Origin: Lachnospiraceae bacterium UBA1066 | GTDB lineage: Bacteria > Bacillota > Clostridia > Lachnospirales > Lachnospiraceae | Direction of reading: 5' to 3' | Length of the DNA: 41,357 nt | Assembly: GCA_002316215.1 (NCBI GenBank) | Contig: DCDB01000107.1 | Coordinates: 1 to 41,357 of the forward strand | Shown: piece after piece, positions 3,801 to 41,357 of the stretch | How positions within the stretch are numbered: the stretch's first letter is position 1 | Layout: the number at the start of each line of letters is the position of its first letter | Notes under the pieces: generated by a model | The model's input: the letters and a program-made list of their open reading frames with translations, nothing else | Told to the model about the DNA's origin: nothing | The model's database searches: none | Translations under genes and position numbers: made by a program

Positions 3801-4362
3801 GCGTCATACGTTTCTTTCTGCGCAGCATGAGGATCTTGTACAGTCTGCCGCAACCCTGCAGGGTATTATTGAAGAACTGGACAAGGGAATGCGCAAACAG
3901 TTTAATGAAAAGTTCGCGGAAATAAACAGGGAATTCGACAAAGCCTTTAAGGAACTTTTCGGCGGCGGAAAAGGCACCCTGGAGATTGAAAATGACGTTG
4001 ATATTCTTGAAGCGGGCATTGCCATTATTTCCCAGCCGCCCGGCAAGAAGCTTCAGAACATGATGCAGCTTTCCGGAGGTGAGAAATCGCTGACTGCAAT
4101 TGCACTTCTTTTTGCCATCCAGAACCTGAAGCCGTCTCCGTTCTGTCTCCTCGATGAAATAGAAGCTGCTCTCGATGACAACAATGTGGCGCGCTTTGCG
4201 AATTATCTTCATAAGTTGACAAAGAATACACAATTCATTATTATAACGCATAGACGCGGAACGATGGCAGCTGCAGACCGTCTGTACGGTATCACCATGC
4301 AGGAGAAAGGTGTTTCAGCGCTTGTCTCTGTCAGCCTGATTGAAGACAAGCTGCAGGCATAA
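802..4362 (+). CDS. smc: Chromosome segregation protein SMC
   Basis: 1186 aa with Walker A GPNGSGKSN, long coiled coils, hinge (GRATFLPL), signature LSGGEK and Walker B LLDEIEAALD. Confidence 0.98.
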   Translation: MYLKMIEMQGFKSFAHRMTFEFQEGITGIVGPNGSGKSNVADAVRWVLGEQSAKQLRGGNMQDVIFAGTELRKPQSFASVAITFDNSDHALDIDYHEVTVTRRLYRSGESEYLINNAPVRLKDINELFYDTGIGKEGYSIIGQGQIDRIISGRPEERRELFDEAAGIVKFKRRKAAALKKLDEEQQNLLRVNDILSELGAQIEPLKKQSAIAKIYLEKKEVLKQLDINLFLLDDERVEKQLAEIAEKTAITDADIKETEEKFEKTKAEYEKLENDINAIDSDIAAVRDKAAKNELLRQQLHAQIDLLNEQINTVRQNSEHFKSRRQSIASEIEKRTEEKNSHLKEQDLLDASIKKAADEQKTENEKLRACEQELEKINSDINRSKSSVIAMLNSRASVKGKLQRYDAMLEQIDIRKSEISGRMLRFREEENDASAAISQADEALKTAQSAIAALKEKTGKDEEKVAAYQKQIAESNRTLDAGQTAYHREASKLESLKTLTENYDGYGNGIKKVMEQKGRNPGILGVVADVISVGKKYELAVETALGGSIRNIVTDNENTAKYLIEYLKTNKFGRATFLPLTNIRGRKRYDHEEALREEGVIGLASSLVKVEERFSALNEHLLGRTLVVDNIDHAISIGRKYSHSLYMVTLQGESFSPGGSITGGAFRNQENLLGRRREIEELTQNVKTLKNEMDEMQKSIEEIRAKRNALRDEIVEISGKLQDQLIRQNTAQLSKKQAEEQIRGNHINRSSLEKENAEIEKQISQIRGLKAGIEKELKASEADEQKINAEAGELEKKAEELQKQKDRQSYLLESVHVKYAGLTQQSGFLATNVERLDREIAGLKEEDISVVQGMDSGAGEIKEKLDSISKVELTIKAAEEEVSLNDADEKKLTEEKDRLSESHKSFFAKRDELQERLNKLDKESYRLSSQKDRISEAMEGSISYLWEEYELTPNQAKPLRNPEYTDRAAIRKDISHLKDEIKQLGNVNVNAIEDYKSILERHTFLSAQHEDLVQSAATLQGIIEELDKGMRKQFNEKFAEINREFDKAFKELFGGGKGTLEIENDVDILEAGIAIISQPPGKKLQNMMQLSGGEKSLTAIALLFAIQNLKPSPFCLLDEIEAALDDNNVARFANYLHKLTKNTQFIIITHRRGTMAAADRLYGITMQEKGVSALVSVSLIEDKLQA

Positions 4363-4479
4363 GCCGAAAAACAACATCTGGCATAAGCCGAAAAGCGAGC
4401 GGAAGGCATAAGCCGAAAAGCGAACGGAAGGCATGAGCCGAAGAGTGAACATCAGGCATGAACCGAAAAACGGACGGCT
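4356..4479 (+). repeat. Imperfect 24-25 bp tandem repeat, 5 units (core GGCATAAGCCGAAAA)
   Basis: Units start at 4356, 4380, 4405, 4430 and 4455. The first unit contains the smc stop codon. Degenerate continuation to about 4512. Confidence 0.9.
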
Positions 4480-11395: not shown

Positions 11396-11445
11396 GTCAG
11401 ACGGTTTTTCCTGCTGGGAGGAAACTTTTTGAACTTTTACGCCTG
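11396..11445 (+). repeat. Diverged copy of the 50-bp palindromic dispersed repeat
   Basis: GTCAGACGGTTTTTCCTGCTGGGAGGAAACTTTTTGAACTTTTACGCCTG matches 41138-41187 at 42 of 51 columns by hand. Confidence 0.8.
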
Positions 11446-11545
11446 CACAATAAAATATTTTGAAATGTACTGATGACGGGGCGCCGCGAAAGATACTATT
11501 AACGTATGATAAAAAGACAGTACAATTCAGAAAGACGGAGAGTGT

Positions 11546-19146: not shown

Positions 19147-19154
19147 CATAATGT

Positions 19155-19224
19155 AAGCGTCAAAAGTCAAAAGTTATTCCTGAAGGCAGGTGACTTTTGA
19201 CTTTTGGCGTACGAAGACATGAGG
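19155..19224 (-). repeat. Inverted-orientation copy of the dispersed palindromic element; long hairpin between serA and glgB-like gene
   Basis: AAGCGTCAAAAGTCAAAA is identical to the reverse complement of the end of the 50-bp unit, and similarity runs on to ACATGAGG. Forms a 20-bp stem 19157-19176 / 19191-19210 with G-T pairs plus inner CCTG/CAGG. Confidence 0.85.
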
Positions 19225-24277: not shown

Positions 24278-24281
24278 TACA

Positions 24282-24355
24282 TTCCTCATGTTTTCGTGCG
24301 CCGAAGTTAAAAAGGCTTTTCCGAAGGAAGGGTACGTTTGGTCTTCTGGCGCTTG
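24282..24355 (+). repeat. Decayed copy of the dispersed palindromic element
   Basis: TTCCTCATGTTTTCGTGCG...GTTAAAAAG...TCTTCTGGCGCTTG matches 41283-41357 at about 54 of 75 columns by hand. Confidence 0.7.
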
Positions 24356-24400
24356 CATCACAGCAACGAATATAAAAAAATCAGATTGGAGTTAAACAAC

Positions 24401-35949: not shown

Positions 35950-36885
35950 TTGGATATTCAATGGTATCCCGGGCACATGACCAAATCGATCCGCATAATG
36001 CAGGAGGATATCCGTCTTGTTGATCTCGTAATTGAACTGGTCGATGCCCGTATTCCTCTTTCAAGCAGGAACCCTGATATTGACAGGCTGGCAGGAACAA
36101 AAAGCCGGCTGCTGATCCTTAATAAATCCGATCTGTCCGATGAAAATTGCTGCAGGCTCTGGATTTCTTATTTTAAAGGTCTTTCAATTAATGCTATCCT
36201 GCTTGATTCCAGGAAAACAGGAAATAAAAAGAGACTTCTTTCTGCTATGCAGTCGGCATGCAGCGAGCGGATTCAACGCGACCGTGAACGCGGAATGAAG
36301 GAGCGCCCGATCCGTGCCATGGTTGCCGGTATTCCGAACGTCGGGAAATCGACCTTCATCAATTCATTTTCCGGAAAAGCCATGGCTAAGACCGGGAATA
36401 AACCCGGAGTCACAAAAGGAAAGCAGTGGATACACCTTGAGGGTGTGGATCTTCTGGATACACCAGGACTGCTCTGGCCAAAGTTTGATGATCCGGAGAT
36501 TGGTCTTAAGCTTGCGCTCATAGGCGCGATCAACGATGAAATCCTGAGCGAGGAGACTTTGGCACTTCAGCTTATCAGAAAGATTATGGTGTTATACCCG
36601 GAGGCTCTTGAAAAACGATACAGTATCTCAGAGGCTGAAGTTCCCGAAACGCTTCTGGCTGGTATTGGGAAGAAAAGAGGCTGCCTTGTAAAAGGCGGAG
36701 AAATTGATCTTTCCCGTACATCGGACATTCTTCTTGACGATTTCAGGCAGGGGCGGCTGGGAAGAATCTCCCTGGAAGTACCCGCGGATTTTACTTTGGG
36801 AGCACGGAAGGGCTATATGAATGAAGCTGCGGCTCAGCCGGACAGCGCCGACTCTTCTACAGAACAAAAGAGCAGTGACAATTAA
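35950..36885 (+). CDS. ylqF: Ribosome biogenesis GTPase YlqF/RbgA
   Basis: IQWYPGHM, DARIP, LNKSDL, GIPNVGKST, DTPG. C-terminal tail comes from the adjoining repeat. Confidence 0.96.
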   Translation: MDIQWYPGHMTKSIRIMQEDIRLVDLVIELVDARIPLSSRNPDIDRLAGTKSRLLILNKSDLSDENCCRLWISYFKGLSINAILLDSRKTGNKKRLLSAMQSACSERIQRDRERGMKERPIRAMVAGIPNVGKSTFINSFSGKAMAKTGNKPGVTKGKQWIHLEGVDLLDTPGLLWPKFDDPEIGLKLALIGAINDEILSEETLALQLIRKIMVLYPEALEKRYSISEAEVPETLLAGIGKKRGCLVKGGEIDLSRTSDILLDDFRQGRLGRISLEVPADFTLGARKGYMNEAAAQPDSADSSTEQKSSDN

Positions 36886-37011
36886 TCTTCGGCTCAGCCC
36901 GGACAGCGCCGACTCTTCTGCAGCACAAAAGAACAGTGACAATTAATCTTCGGCAAAGCCCGGACAGCGCCGACTCTTCTGCAGCACAAAAGAACAGTGA
37001 CAATTAATCTT
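36830..37011 (+). repeat. 60-61 bp tandem repeat, 3 units
   Basis: Units at 36830, 36890, 36951 (CGGCTCAGCCCGGACAGCGCCGACTCTTCTGCAGCACAAAAGAACAGTGACAATTAATCTT). Unit 1 includes the ylqF stop. Confidence 0.95.
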
Positions 37012-37132
37012 TGGCAAATCCGGCAGGACGAACGGGCTGTAAACCGGACCGTGCCGCAGACACAAGCTGCATCATAAAAATACAGTCTCACGGAAGCGGC
37101 ATTAAAGAAAAAAGCAACAGGCGGATACGGAA

Positions 37133-37810
37133 ATGACGGATAAACAGCTGGCGAAGCAAAAGGAAAAAGAAGCGCGGGAAAAAGCAAAGCTTGATAAAGA
37201 GCTGGAACGCACGGAAAAACTCATGTTTTATGAGCGAAAATACGCTGAAAAAGCTCCCCTGTGCGGAATCGATGAGGTGGGACGGGGTCCTCTTGCAGGG
37301 CCTGTCGTAGCCTGTGCACTTATTCTGCCGACAGATCATAATATCCTCTATATTAATGATTCCAAGAAACTTACCGCTAATAAAAGAGAAGAATTATATG
37401 AAATCCTGACAGAAGAGGCTGTAGCTTTCGGCATCGGCATGGTTACGCCTATGCGAATTGACGAAATAAATATTCTTCAGGCCACCTATGAAGCCATGAG
37501 AGAGGCCATTTCGAAGCTTACTGTCCGTCCGGGGCTTCTTTTAAATGATGCGGTACATATCCCGCAGGTCGAGATCCCACAGGTTTCCATAGTCGGCGGC
37601 GACGGAAAAAGTGTTTCCATAGGTGCAGCCAGCATCGTTGCTAAAGTGACCAGGGATCGTATGATGGAAGAATATGAACGTATGTTTCCGGGTTACGGTT
37701 TTGCCCGGAACAAGGGCTACGGAACAGCAGATCATATTGCGGCTTTGAAAAGCTTAGGCCCCTGTCCGATACATCGCAGGACATTTATCACACATTTTGT
37801 AAATGGGTAG
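37133..37810 (+). CDS. rnhB: Ribonuclease HII
   Basis: GIDEVGRGPLAGPV, DSKKL, AASIVAKVTRD, NKGYGT, IHRRTF. Confidence 0.96.
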   Translation: MTDKQLAKQKEKEAREKAKLDKELERTEKLMFYERKYAEKAPLCGIDEVGRGPLAGPVVACALILPTDHNILYINDSKKLTANKREELYEILTEEAVAFGIGMVTPMRIDEINILQATYEAMREAISKLTVRPGLLLNDAVHIPQVEIPQVSIVGGDGKSVSIGAASIVAKVTRDRMMEEYERMFPGYGFARNKGYGTADHIAALKSLGPCPIHRRTFITHFVNG

Positions 37811-37825
37811 TTTTACCGGAATAAT

Positions 37826-37949
37826 ATTTTGCAGCGCCAGATTTATGAGGGATGATACTTTGCAGCGTCAGATTTATGAGGGACGATATTTTGCAGCGCC
37901 AGATTTATGAGAGACGACATTTTGCAGCGCCAGATTTATGAGGGATAAA
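37826..37949 (+). repeat. 31-bp tandem repeat, 4 units
   Basis: Units at 37826, 37857, 37888, 37919 (ATTTTGCAGCGCCAGATTTATGAGGGAYGAT). Confidence 0.95.
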
Positions 37950-37951
37950 GT

Positions 37952-38308
37952 TTGAATAAACGGGCTGTAGGCAGCGGCCGTGAGGCAGAAGCTGCCGATT
38001 TTCTTAAGAATCGGGGATTTGAAATTGCAGAAATGAACTTCCGGTGCCGGATCGGTGAAATCGACATCATTGCAAAAGACGGGAAATATCTGGTCTTTGT
38101 CGAGGTAAAGTACCGTGCTTCAGCGGCAAAAGGCAGCCCACTTGAAGCCGTCGGCTTCAGGAAACAGTGGACAATATCACGAGTTGCATCATATTACTTA
38201 CTGAAAAACCATCTGCCTGAGACTACAGCCTGCCGTTTCGATGTCGTCGGCATGACGCCCACGGAAACGGTACTTCTTAAGAATGCTTTCAATTTTATTC
38301 CTTATTAA
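37952..38308 (+). CDS. yraN: YraN family (UPF0102) putative endonuclease
   Basis: NFRCRIGEIDIIA, LVFVEVKYR, CRFDVV; follows rnhB. Confidence 0.92.
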   Translation: MNKRAVGSGREAEAADFLKNRGFEIAEMNFRCRIGEIDIIAKDGKYLVFVEVKYRASAAKGSPLEAVGFRKQWTISRVASYYLLKNHLPETTACRFDVVGMTPTETVLLKNAFNFIPY

Positions 38309-39345: not shown

Positions 39346-41094
39346 CTAAATCAATGTTTCCCTGCGGATCCCGGATATGTCGGGCACGGCCATCAGGGAA
39401 TAGTTTGTATGATAAATGACAAATCCCGGCTTTCCGCCGTTAGTTTTCTTTAAATTTCTTCTTAAAGTATAATCAATTTCAACCTTTGGCGCCTTGCGCC
39501 CCTTTGAAAACCATGCTGCGAGAGCGCCGGCCTCCTCAAAGGTTCTGTCAGGCACTTCCTTTCCTCCGCAGCGGACAATAACATGGCTGCCGGGAATGCC
39601 CTTTGCGTGGAACCACCAGTCATTTCCCGAAGCATATTTAAAGGTGAGTTCTTCATTTTGAAAATTGTTTTTTCCGACATACATATGGAAACCGTCGGAA
39701 GAAATAAAGGAAAGAGGCCGCGACTTCTCTTCACGGACCTTCCCTTTTTGAATTCCCTTTCTCTGAACGAAACCATATTCCGTCAGCTCGCGGCGGATCT
39801 CTGAAAGATCAGCTTCATTTTCCGCAAGGTCAATAGCCGTAAGGCACGCTTCCAGCTGATCGCGGTCGGCTTTAGAGGCTTCCAGCTGCACACGCGCAGC
39901 TTCTGACGTACGTTTCATTTTATTATAGCGTTCAAAGTAGTGCTGGGCATTCTGGCTGGCCGTAAGCGTGGGATCAAGAGGGATTTCAAGCGGTTCATTT
40001 GTATAATAATTTATTACGGATAGCTTTTTAGCCCCCTCTTCAGCTTCATAGCCATAGGTGTTGAGCATTTCTCCGTATATCCTGTATTTCTCTTTCTTTT
40101 CGGAATCCTGCAGCTGCTTTTCCTGCAATGCGCATTTTTTATTCGTGCGGTCAAGGGCTGTTGCCGTAACATGACGCAAATCCGAAGATTTCTGGCGGAT
40201 GCGAGTCACGGCTTCCTTCTCGGCATAATAGTTCTCGAGGAGAAGGCTCATAGAACTAAAGGGCTTAGAATCCAGGGAACTGTATATTTTAAGCGGATAA
40301 GCCGCATATTCACAGGGCTCGCCTTCTTCATAAACAACGTTCGGTAAAAATCTCCCGTTTTTGATATCATCCATATGGGACGAAAAGACACGGAAAAGAG
40401 CCGCTCTTTCGCTTTGCGTAAGTTCCCTTGCCGTTTTGCGGGGCTCAACTTCTGCTTCGTAAATGAATTCCTGCGAAGCTGCAGGAGACAGCCCCGTGAA
40501 AATGCTGTACAGTGCTTTTACGATATCATAGCTTACGGTATCAATTCTCTCAGAAAAAACATCTTCCTCACACGTAAGGGGATTGACCTTCTCATCCGCA
40601 CCGGGTATAAAGTAAGGACGGCCCGGAAGAACTTCACGCACAGAGCTCATGGACGATGGAACACGCTTGATGCTGTCTAGAATGACATCTTTTTCATCCG
40701 TCAGGATAATATTGCTGTATTTTCCCATAAGTTCTATAATCAGCTTCTTTTCGCACAGGTCGCCGAGCTCGTCATGATGCTGGATACGGAAAATAATGAC
40801 ACGTTCCAGCGAAGGCTGGGTAACGGAAAGAATCTGACCTCCCTGAAGATGTTTCCTAAGGAACATGCAGAAATTCGGTGCGGAAAGGGGAGCCTGTTTA
40901 TTCTCAGACGAAAGATAAATAAGAGGAAGAGAAGCAGAGGCGCTCATAAGGAGGCGGTAAGCCGTCTTATTGCTTTTAATTGTCAGAAGAAGTTCGTCTT
41001 TCTCCGACTGGACAATACGGCTGATTCCTCCGCCGGTGAGTGTTTTATTCAGTTCATATACGACGGCTGCCGTCGTTATTCCGTCAAATGCCAT
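39346..41094 (-). CDS. rqcH: Ribosome quality control factor RqcH (NFACT/FbpA family)
   Basis: MAFDG start after GGAGG SD, FCMFLRKHL, ELMGKYSNIIL, VGKNNFQNE, WFHAKGIPGSHV, KPGFVIY. Confidence 0.93.
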   Translation of the reverse strand: MAFDGITTAAVVYELNKTLTGGGISRIVQSEKDELLLTIKSNKTAYRLLMSASASLPLIYLSSENKQAPLSAPNFCMFLRKHLQGGQILSVTQPSLERVIIFRIQHHDELGDLCEKKLIIELMGKYSNIILTDEKDVILDSIKRVPSSMSSVREVLPGRPYFIPGADEKVNPLTCEEDVFSERIDTVSYDIVKALYSIFTGLSPAASQEFIYEAEVEPRKTARELTQSERAALFRVFSSHMDDIKNGRFLPNVVYEEGEPCEYAAYPLKIYSSLDSKPFSSMSLLLENYYAEKEAVTRIRQKSSDLRHVTATALDRTNKKCALQEKQLQDSEKKEKYRIYGEMLNTYGYEAEEGAKKLSVINYYTNEPLEIPLDPTLTASQNAQHYFERYNKMKRTSEAARVQLEASKADRDQLEACLTAIDLAENEADLSEIRRELTEYGFVQRKGIQKGKVREEKSRPLSFISSDGFHMYVGKNNFQNEELTFKYASGNDWWFHAKGIPGSHVIVRCGGKEVPDRTFEEAGALAAWFSKGRKAPKVEIDYTLRRNLKKTNGGKPGFVIYHTNYSLMAVPDISGIRRETLI

Positions 41095-41137
41095 AAGGGG
41101 AACCTCCGTAAATGTTTTCGGCGTGAATGATGCAGAT

Positions 41138-41187
41138 GTCAAAAAGTTTTTCCTGCAAGCAGGAAACTTTTTGACTTTTGACGCTTG
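41138..41187. repeat. 50-bp palindromic direct repeat, copy 1
   Basis: GTCAAAAAGTTTTTCCTGCAAGCAGGAAACTTTTTGACTTTTGACGCTTG, identical to 41308-41357. Confidence 0.95.
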
Positions 41188-41205
41188 TTCTTTCCATGAT
41201 GCCAC

Positions 41206-41296
41206 GGATTGCTCCATCGCTTCGCGATTCCCGCAATCCTAAAAACATTCGGAATCCGCTCATTTACTTCGCAAATGGCTTCTTCCTCATGTTTTT
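41206..41296 (-). other. Two adjacent long hairpins with GAA terminal loops and purine-only internal loops (minus strand)
   Basis: Hairpin A 41206-41239 GGATTGC-tcc-ATCGC-ttc-GCGAT-tccc-GCAATCC. Hairpin B 41241-41296 AAAAACAT-tc-GGAA-tcc-GC-t-CATTTAC-ttc-GCAAATG-GC-ttc-TTCC-tc-ATGTTTTT. Confidence 0.8.
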
Positions 41297-41307
41297 GCGC
41301 GTCCAGG

Positions 41308-41357
41308 GTCAAAAAGTTTTTCCTGCAAGCAGGAAACTTTTTGACTTTTGACGCTTG
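41308..41357. repeat. 50-bp palindromic direct repeat, copy 2 (runs to window end)
   Basis: Identical to 41138-41187, offset 170 bp. Confidence 0.95.

What the first reader, a model, noticed from the sequence alone, without database searches (positions are those of the whole stretch)
41138..41357. Composite structured non-coding element: two identical 50-bp palindromes around a 120-bp double-hairpin core
Seen: upstream of rqcH, an exact 50-bp direct repeat recurs at 170-bp spacing. Each copy folds (GTCAAAAAG/CTTTTTGAC outer stem, TTTCCTGC/GCAGGAAA inner stem), and most of the 120 bp between is also base-paired. The second copy ends at the window edge, so the unit may be longer or continue as an array. 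Established: REP/BIME modules and palindrome-associated non-autonomous elements are mobilised by HUH (Y1) transposases of the IS200/IS605 and RAYT families that recognise ssDNA hairpins. Inference: this is the most intact local member of a non-autonomous repeat family, or a structured ncRNA array; I do not recognise it as a named element.
Basis: partly seen in the sequence, partly recalled or inferred. Interest (0 to 1): 0.72.

Follow-up and report, generated by a model that had tools for sequence, protein, structure and literature searches.

The report
Orphan RNA motif is a mini-transposon
The folded repeat upstream of rqcH is a copy of a catalogued but unexplained "RNA" (Clostridiales-1) that sits inside a small gene-less jumping element, likely moved by a borrowed IS1182-like transposase and likely folding as single-stranded DNA rather than RNA.

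Summary
The 50-bp repeat is real and not an assembly artefact, but it is not a new element: 41197-41357 (-) is Rfam Clostridiales-1 (RF01699, 115.6 bits), and the left palindrome is a duplicate of its first hairpin. About 70 intergenic pieces lie in this genome; strong copies occur patchily in 40 of 120 same-family genomes. New here: many copies are bounded by 17-bp terminal inverted repeats with 7-bp target duplications (perfect in 11 of 26 and 11 of 29 two-ended copies; swapped controls 1-2%). The same ends and duplication length bound 1.86-kb insertion sequences encoding a divergent IS1182-like DDE transposase. So the motif is most likely the interior of a MITE, not a REP/HUH element; Y1 transposases do not track it. 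C(GNA)G triloops in 75 of 88 copies suggest a single-stranded DNA fold. Against: this 87%-complete genome shows no such transposase, the window's own duplication is cut off, and 83 of 128 sampled copies lack these ends. The scan noted Clostridiales-1 as mobile before on other DNA (IS66-type ends in one note); the IS1182-like partner was in neither note.

The parts
41197..41357 (-). Clostridiales-1 motif (Rfam RF01699), four-way junction, model positions 6-166, 5' end cut by the contig end
   Evidence: 115.6 bits, gathering score 48, E 8.5e-26
41129..41145 (+). Terminal inverted repeat, rqcH-side end of the element; 13 of 17 identical to the left end of the autonomous IS; contains an outward TTGACA on the - strand (41142-41137)
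   Evidence: function as an end inferred
41345..41357 (-). Other terminal inverted repeat, last 13 of 17 bases; predicted to end at 41361, giving a 233-bp element
   Evidence: complete in the copies on C17, C224, C107; truncation seen directly
41122..41128 (+). 7-bp flank, candidate target-site duplication
   Evidence: untested: the partner flank lies beyond the contig; it matched none of 5 contig-end flanks inspected
41138..41187 (-). Left 50-bp palindrome: duplicate of hairpin P2; with 41129-41137 it resembles a 63-bp mini form found alone elsewhere (C272, C313, C365)
41188..41195 (-). 8-nt linker between the unit and the duplicated hairpin; similar linker on C224, C251, C317
41206..41239 (-). 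Hairpin P4 with C(GAA)G triloop at 41221-41223
   Evidence: alignment; sequence
41241..41296 (-). Hairpin P3 with internal loops and C(GAA)G triloop at 41268-41270
   Evidence: alignment; sequence
41299..41354 (-). Hairpin P2 with C(TT)G apex; contains the right 50-bp palindrome (41308-41357); inner stem scores as terminator-like on both strands
39346..41097 (-).
11396..11453 (+). Decayed hairpin-only copy of the same family
   Evidence: nhmmer E 9e-6
19147..19224 (-). Decayed one-ended copy of the same family
   Evidence: nhmmer E 3e-6; end motif at 19150
24280..24361 (+). Decayed one-ended copy of the same family
   Evidence: nhmmer E 4e-9; end motif at 24359

Best explanation
[quoted passage not shown] Shown: the Rfam match, the many intergenic copies, the 17-bp inverted ends, the 7-bp duplications in related copies, and transposase-encoding elements with the same ends and duplication length. 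Inferred mechanism: the transposase binds the two ends, cuts an AT-rich target with a 7-nt stagger and inserts the element; repair makes the duplication. When the duplex is opened (replication, transcription) one strand folds into a four-way junction capped by GNA mini-hairpins. That fold would promote polymerase slippage and template switching, which would explain the duplicated hairpin here, the tandem partial copies, the one-ended fragments and the 36-63-bp minis. No role for the host is needed; an effect on rqcH transcription is possible but untested.
For: RF01699 at 115.6 bits. 15 covariance-model matches in this genome, 7 over the cut-off; five full units 89-96% identical; 64 of 72 loci lie mostly outside long ORFs against 83% coding background. 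Patchy: 25 of 52 other genus genomes, 40 of 120 family genomes. Orthologous intergenic regions without the element in relatives. Two-ended copies: perfect 7-bp duplication in 11 of 26, at most 1 of 26 for lengths 4-6 and 8-10, swapped flanks 1.2%; in a second set 11 of 29, swapped 1.6%, and 35 of 40 top family hits carry the IS-like left end. In this genome a 63-bp mini on C365 has a 7/7 duplication and the C126 and C17 contig ends share one (join inferred). Autonomous elements of 1855-1867 bp with the same ends; perfect 7-bp duplication in 6 of 11 distinct two-ended transposase elements. The IS left end is identical (17 of 17) to one MITE end at 4 loci of this genome (C148, C274, C287, C313). 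The protein has DUF772, DDE_Tnp_1 and DDE_Tnp_1_6 domains and invariant D158, D351, E479 in 8 of 8 (assignment as catalytic triad inferred). All 3 genomes of the first-found IS copies hold 5-20 motif matches. Loops: C(GNA)G in 75 of 88 units on the motif strand with all four N (63 GAA, 12 GCA, 10 GGA, 7 GTA), no UNCG; 27 of 40 in the family set; GCGNAGC is a very stable DNA mini-hairpin (PMC13037366, passages).
Against: No transposase of this group was found in this genome (87% complete, 377 contigs). Co-occurrence is weak: of 5 genus genomes with a near full-length transposase only 1 has strong motif matches; in the family 4 of 6 IS-bearing against 36 of 114 other genomes (my hand calculation p about 0.09, kin not independent); 2 of 5 MITE-bearing genomes held the transposase. 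83 of 128 units in the first set (118 from this genus plus 10 picked by the IS-like end) lack the IS-like ends. The window's own duplication cannot be tested and its rqcH-side end is a rearranged one (13 of 17). Three other young copies here (C224, C302, C376) have no recognisable second end. No empty site was seen at C224 in 4 runs. The IS interiors do not contain the motif, so its origin is unexplained. A DDE enzyme needs no single-stranded fold, so the conserved fold is not explained by transposition alone. Copies are related, so loop counts are not independent events.
Confidence: 0.75

Rival explanations
1. The motif is a functional structured RNA (as Rfam files it), transcribed from AT-rich flanks or with neighbouring genes, and the fold is kept by selection on the transcript (stability, termination); mobility is secondary.
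For: Pairing is kept across very divergent subfamilies. A TAnnnT hexamer lies within 14 nt before 32 of 58 ends against 12 of 58 in control flank. The motif strand is the more stable in 25 of 25 units with RNA parameters. bcr1 of Bacillus is a transcribed repeat with compensatory changes (PMC3184786, passages). The P2 inner stem looks terminator-like.
Against: Triloops of DNA type and no UNCG; the same strand preference holds with DNA parameters; positions are not conserved between species and about half of the genus lacks strong copies; the hexamer excess is equally explained by the AT-rich target consensus. Expression was not tested.
Confidence: 0.12
2. The core is an independent single-stranded DNA element moved by an unidentified structure-specific enzyme (HUH or other); the IS1182-like ends were acquired by some lineages only.
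For: 83 of 128 units in the first set have no IS-like ends and no excess of flanking direct repeats; 28 of 83 follow a run of 5 or more T against 0 of 36 of the others, and 30 of 83 carry a partial direct copy of their 5' end against 4 of 36; in 5 of 6 such subfamilies the outer stem is locus-specific (permutation p from under 0.0002 to 0.035). DNA-type loops. An unchecked scan note reports IS66-type ends round the same motif.
Against: No recurring enzyme gene beside 130 copies; the shared neighbours look like housekeeping and transport genes (singletons not scanned against Pfam). Y1 transposases do not track the motif. The pooled outer-stem test was negative (own 2.94 against swapped 2.93); the positive test used anchors chosen afterwards. 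IS1272, described as inserting into inverted repeats without duplication (PMC5678879, abstract), shows that a DDE enzyme could also explain these forms. The window copy itself has the IS-like end.
Confidence: 0.1
3. A REP/BIME or PATE-type element served by a Y1/RAYT transposase.
For: Direct-repeat hairpins, tandem partial copies and single-strand polarity resemble such elements (recalled). In G005 one subfamily has a recurring TTTACT at both boundaries.
Against: Target duplications of one fixed length and inverted ends shared with DDE elements; Y1 genes with unrelated ends here and none found in three motif-bearing genomes.
Confidence: 0.03

Closest known systems
Clostridiales-1 RNA motif (Rfam RF01699; Weinberg et al. 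2010, PMC2864571)
   Same: Same sequence and structure family, 115.6 bits over model positions 6-166.
   Different: The paper's table lists it as a probable RNA, not cis-regulatory, not a riboswitch (passages). The model stops short of the element: it omits the second inverted end and the target duplication. The paper's per-motif comments (S1.DOC) could not be read.
IS1182 family of insertion sequences (NCBIfam NF033551) and their MITEs
   Same: Partner transposase has DUF772 + DDE_Tnp_1_6 and scores best on the IS1182 model over nearly its whole length; short inverted ends.
   Different: 129-136 bits against a cut-off of 270, so a divergent subgroup, not a member by that test; fixed 7-bp AT-rich duplication rather than the inverted-repeat targeting without duplication reported for IS1272 (PMC5678879, abstract).
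bcr1 repeat of the Bacillus cereus group
   Same: About 155-bp dispersed repeat, non-conserved positions, flanking direct repeats, fold kept by compensatory changes (PMC3184786, passages).
   Different: 5-bp repeats, cruciform of two stem-loops, shown to be transcribed; the passages read name no partner transposase; no sequence comparison was made.
REP/BIME/REPIN and PATE elements of HUH (Y1, RAYT) transposases
   Same: Intergenic, palindromic, one-strand fold, partial tandem copies (recalled).
   Different: Here inverted ends and 7-bp duplications, and no linked Y1 gene.

Membership tests
Rfam RF01699 Clostridiales-1 | Covariance-model score above 48 bits | tested here: met
   115.6 bits
Rfam RF01699 Clostridiales-1 | Functions as an RNA | not tested
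MITE | Short, no transposase, many dispersed copies | tested here: met
MITE | Terminal inverted repeats | tested here: met
   41129-41145 and 41345-41357 (second cut by the contig end); complete in related copies
MITE | Target-site duplication of fixed length | tested here: met
   Family level: 11 of 26 and 11 of 29 perfect 7-mers. For the window copy itself not testable.
MITE | Autonomous element with matching ends | tested here: met
   L274, L284, L367, L370, L381
MITE | Partner present in the same genome | tested here: inconclusive
   Not found in this incomplete genome; found with the motif in G069-G071, G076 and 4 of 6 IS-bearing family genomes
MITE | Mobilisation in trans | not testable with these tools
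   needs an assay
IS1182 family (partner transposase) | NF033551 score above 270 bits | tested here: not met
   129 and 136 bits; hence 'IS1182-like'
IS1182 family (partner transposase) | DUF772 and DDE_Tnp_1_6 domains, conserved acidic triad | tested here: met
   domain set as typical of the family is recalled
REP/RAYT or IS200/IS605 PATE | Linked Y1 transposase with the same end hairpins | tested here: not met
REP/RAYT or IS200/IS605 PATE | No target-site duplication | tested here: not met
   7-bp duplications
IS66-type MITE (earlier scan note) | GTAA...TTAC termini with 8-bp duplication | tested here: not met
   0 of 40 family copies; not the termini of this genome's copies

The most novel reading that the evidence does not exclude
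Probability: 0.2. Interest if true: 0.75.

Novelty: new variant of a known kind. Interest (0 to 1): 0.45.

Why it matters
It gives a 2010 orphan Rfam 'sRNA' a concrete identity, ends, target duplication and candidate enzyme, which makes it testable in one transposition assay. Strong copies occur in a third of the family genomes sampled, so annotation pipelines and microbiome studies that count it as a regulatory RNA (for example a 2026 preprint correlating it with LDL cholesterol; 10.64898/2026.05.24.727482, passages) may be counting transposon copies. It also defines a divergent IS1182-like group that falls below the family model's cut-off. The open puzzle is why a DDE-moved element keeps a DNA-type single-strand fold.

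Tried and rejected
Assembly artefact: rejected. Single-copy: rejected. Y1/RAYT partner: ends unrelated, distribution does not match. Enzyme gene next to copies: none recurring among neighbours of 130 units; the 228 neighbour ORFs listed were not scanned against Pfam, so a single adjacent enzyme is not excluded. Base-level empty site at rqcH: impossible, the closest relatives are at most 75% identical in the gene; no motif match lies on the rqcH contigs of the genus genomes, and my profile found none in 29 rqcH loci (insensitive to diverged copies). Finding the contig that continues C140 by synteny or by duplication match: failed. Strain-level empty site at C224: none in 4 runs. Viral collection: 2 core matches and 4 end matches, no transposase relative. 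Duplication lengths other than 7: no signal, though four G172 copies show a 6-bp duplication by eye. Long terminator duplications round end-less copies: none of 12 nt or more in 79. Outward hybrid promoter from the TTGACA in the ends: 8 of 58 against 2-6 of 58 at control offsets, not convincing. IS1182-type partners for end-less subfamilies: 2 matches in 1 of 5 genomes, ends not matching. Literature: 'Clostridiales-1' 5 papers, 'RF01699' 5 papers, MITE + Lachnospiraceae 1 unrelated, IS1182 + MITE 5, GNA triloop search 0; most seen as listings only, none of the listings or passages describes the motif as a transposon; the library lacks most subscription papers and three supplements of PMC2864571 were unreadable.

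Full report
Observation. The exact 50-bp repeat is at 41138-41187 and 41308-41357 and the region folds far better than shuffles. The window is the whole contig C140 of an 87%-complete, 377-contig genome. In four runs from four studies, contigs run from the neighbouring NFACT-family gene into the left hairpin and on into the core, so the arrangement is real and the contig simply breaks in a repeat.

Identity. 41197-41357 on the minus strand is Rfam Clostridiales-1, RF01699, at 115.6 bits. It is a four-way junction: P1 closes P2 (the right palindrome), P3 and P4. The left palindrome is a second copy of P2 behind an 8-nt linker. A similar junction recurs on C224, C251 and C317, so the composite is a small sub-form, not a one-off. 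The genome has 15 model matches, 7 over the cut-off, and 72 merged loci by a profile of its own copies, 64 of them mostly outside long ORFs. Five full units are 89-96% identical. Copies are patchy: 13 of 24 and 25 of 52 other genus genomes (the sets overlap and thresholds differ) and 40 of 120 family genomes (at most 21 candidates scored per genome). In two cross-species comparisons the orthologous intergenic region lacks the element.

The element is larger than the Rfam model. Flanks of 130 units show a 17-bp inverted end starting GAT at the 5' edge of the model and a second one just past its 3' edge. Among them are gene-less two-ended elements of 34-236 bp and two of 1859 and 1867 bp, both with perfect 7-bp duplications and one long ORF. 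Ten of 18 loci scanned carry RF01699 next to the end motif, the two IS loci do not, nor do seven further IS loci. For the statistic I took 140 units, dropped 10 truncated and 2 duplicate, and classed 128: 26 two-ended, 19 with the left end only, 83 without. Of the 26, 11 have a perfect 7-bp duplication and 13 have at least 6 of 7; other lengths give at most 1; swapped flanks give 1.2% (10 of the 26 were selected by one exact end, which does not select the duplication). An independent set of 40 top-scoring family hits from 28 genomes gave 29 two-ended, 6 one-ended, 5 without; 11 of 29 perfect, swapped 1.6% (top scores favour the consensus type). In this genome a 63-bp mini has a perfect duplication but most of the 21 end pairs listed do not.

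The partner. The ORF has DUF772, DDE_Tnp_1 and DDE_Tnp_1_6 domains, scores best on IS1182 but at half the cut-off, and has an invariant D, D, E pattern and four cysteines in 8 homologues. Six of 11 distinct two-ended transposase elements have perfect 7-bp duplications. Its left end equals one MITE end exactly at four loci of this genome. Its nearest named plasmid relatives are haloarchaeal 'transposases' at 27%. The enzyme was not found in this genome. Co-occurrence is suggestive only: 3 of 3 first-found IS genomes hold the motif, 2 of 5 MITE genomes hold the enzyme, 4 of 6 against 36 of 114 in the family, 1 of 5 in the genus. Multi-copy elements are often lost from such assemblies, and elements outlive their partners (established knowledge).

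RNA or DNA. On the motif strand 75 of 88 units carry a C(GNA)G triloop on a stem of 4 or more pairs, with all four middle bases; UNCG is absent; 27 of 40 in the family set. The window copy has two, at 41221-41223 and 41268-41270. GCGNAGC is an extraordinarily stable DNA mini-hairpin, the related RNA hairpin is much weaker, and such hairpins occur in single-strand origins (PMC13037366, passages). Folding energies do not separate RNA from DNA. The copies are kin, so this is a strong hint and not a count of independent events. Transcription was not tested.

Mechanism. Shown: family, copy number, ends, duplications, matching autonomous elements. Inferred: transposition in trans with a 7-nt staggered cut at AT-rich sites; folding of one strand when the duplex opens; slippage or template switching at that fold producing the duplicated P2 here and partial tandems elsewhere. 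I put this at 0.75. What it leaves open is the majority class in this genus that lacks the IS-like ends. These often follow a T run (28 of 83 against 0 of 36), often carry a partial 5' copy downstream (30 of 83 against 4 of 36), show no excess of direct repeats, and in 5 of 6 subfamilies have a locus-specific outer stem, although the pooled test was negative. They may use another transposase that targets inverted repeats, as reported for IS1272 (PMC5678879, abstract), or another route altogether.

The HUH/RAYT idea fails: this genome's two Y1 genes have other ends, three motif-bearing genomes gave no Y1 match, and no enzyme recurs beside the copies.

Novelty. The motif is known (PMC2864571; table row and supplement hits seen, S1.DOC, S3.PDF and S7.STO unreadable). 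My searches showed no paper calling it a transposon, but I saw mostly listings. Two unchecked scan notes already treat it as mobile, one with IS66-type ends, and several describe other IS1182-type MITEs. The addition here is the 17-bp/7-bp shell with a named candidate enzyme and a controlled count. MITEs are ordinary; the de-orphaning and the DNA-type fold lift it to moderate interest, 0.45.

Noticed in passing
window 37793-37976: 31-bp tandem repeat, about 4-5 copies, between the RNase HII gene and a UPF0102 gene.
   Followed up: no
window 36838-37020: Three 61-bp tandem copies (89-100% alike) starting inside the end of the ORF 35950-36885.
   Followed up: no
window 4349-4479: About five 25-bp tandem copies directly after the stop of the 1186-aa ORF.
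   Followed up: no
window 41097-41217 (-): An ATG inside the element is in frame with rqcH and open, so a 40-aa N-terminal extension is possible on paper; probably chance.
   Followed up: no
L019:370-600 (G020), many copies in G011 and G050: A second structured repeat family with a GCTTGC-capped long hairpin and GAA triloops, ending in GTTAC; in some loci fused to Clostridiales-1 units.
   Followed up: no
L281, L307, L327, L352 (about 235 bp): Another MITE family with the same 17-bp ends and 7-bp duplications but a different interior; L281 and L307 give no Rfam match inside the element, the other two were not scanned.
   Followed up: partly
L436, L441-L443 (G172); L386: Near-identical recent copies whose ends start GG and whose duplication is 6 bp by eye; an IS end starting GG occurs in L386. 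Suggests end sequence and duplication length vary together in this IS group.
   Followed up: partly
G005 loci L100, L103, L105, L108: Two subfamilies without inverted ends but with a 7-bp direct repeat at a fixed distance (34-35 nt) past the unit.
   Followed up: partly
L274, L284, L367, L368, L376, L379 ends: The autonomous IS carries a second, internal inverted repeat of about 20 bp some 35-55 nt inside each end, not seen in the Clostridiales-1 MITEs.
   Followed up: no
G004, G022, G024 rqcH loci (L068, L069, L071): rqcH matches in two pieces split near residue 270-280 in three genomes: shared frameshift or insertion.
   Followed up: no
G000:C283:9212-10603 (L017): Divergent Y1-family gene opposite a 289-aa ORF, with a hairpin downstream: IS200/IS605-like remnant unrelated to the finding.
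   Followed up: partly
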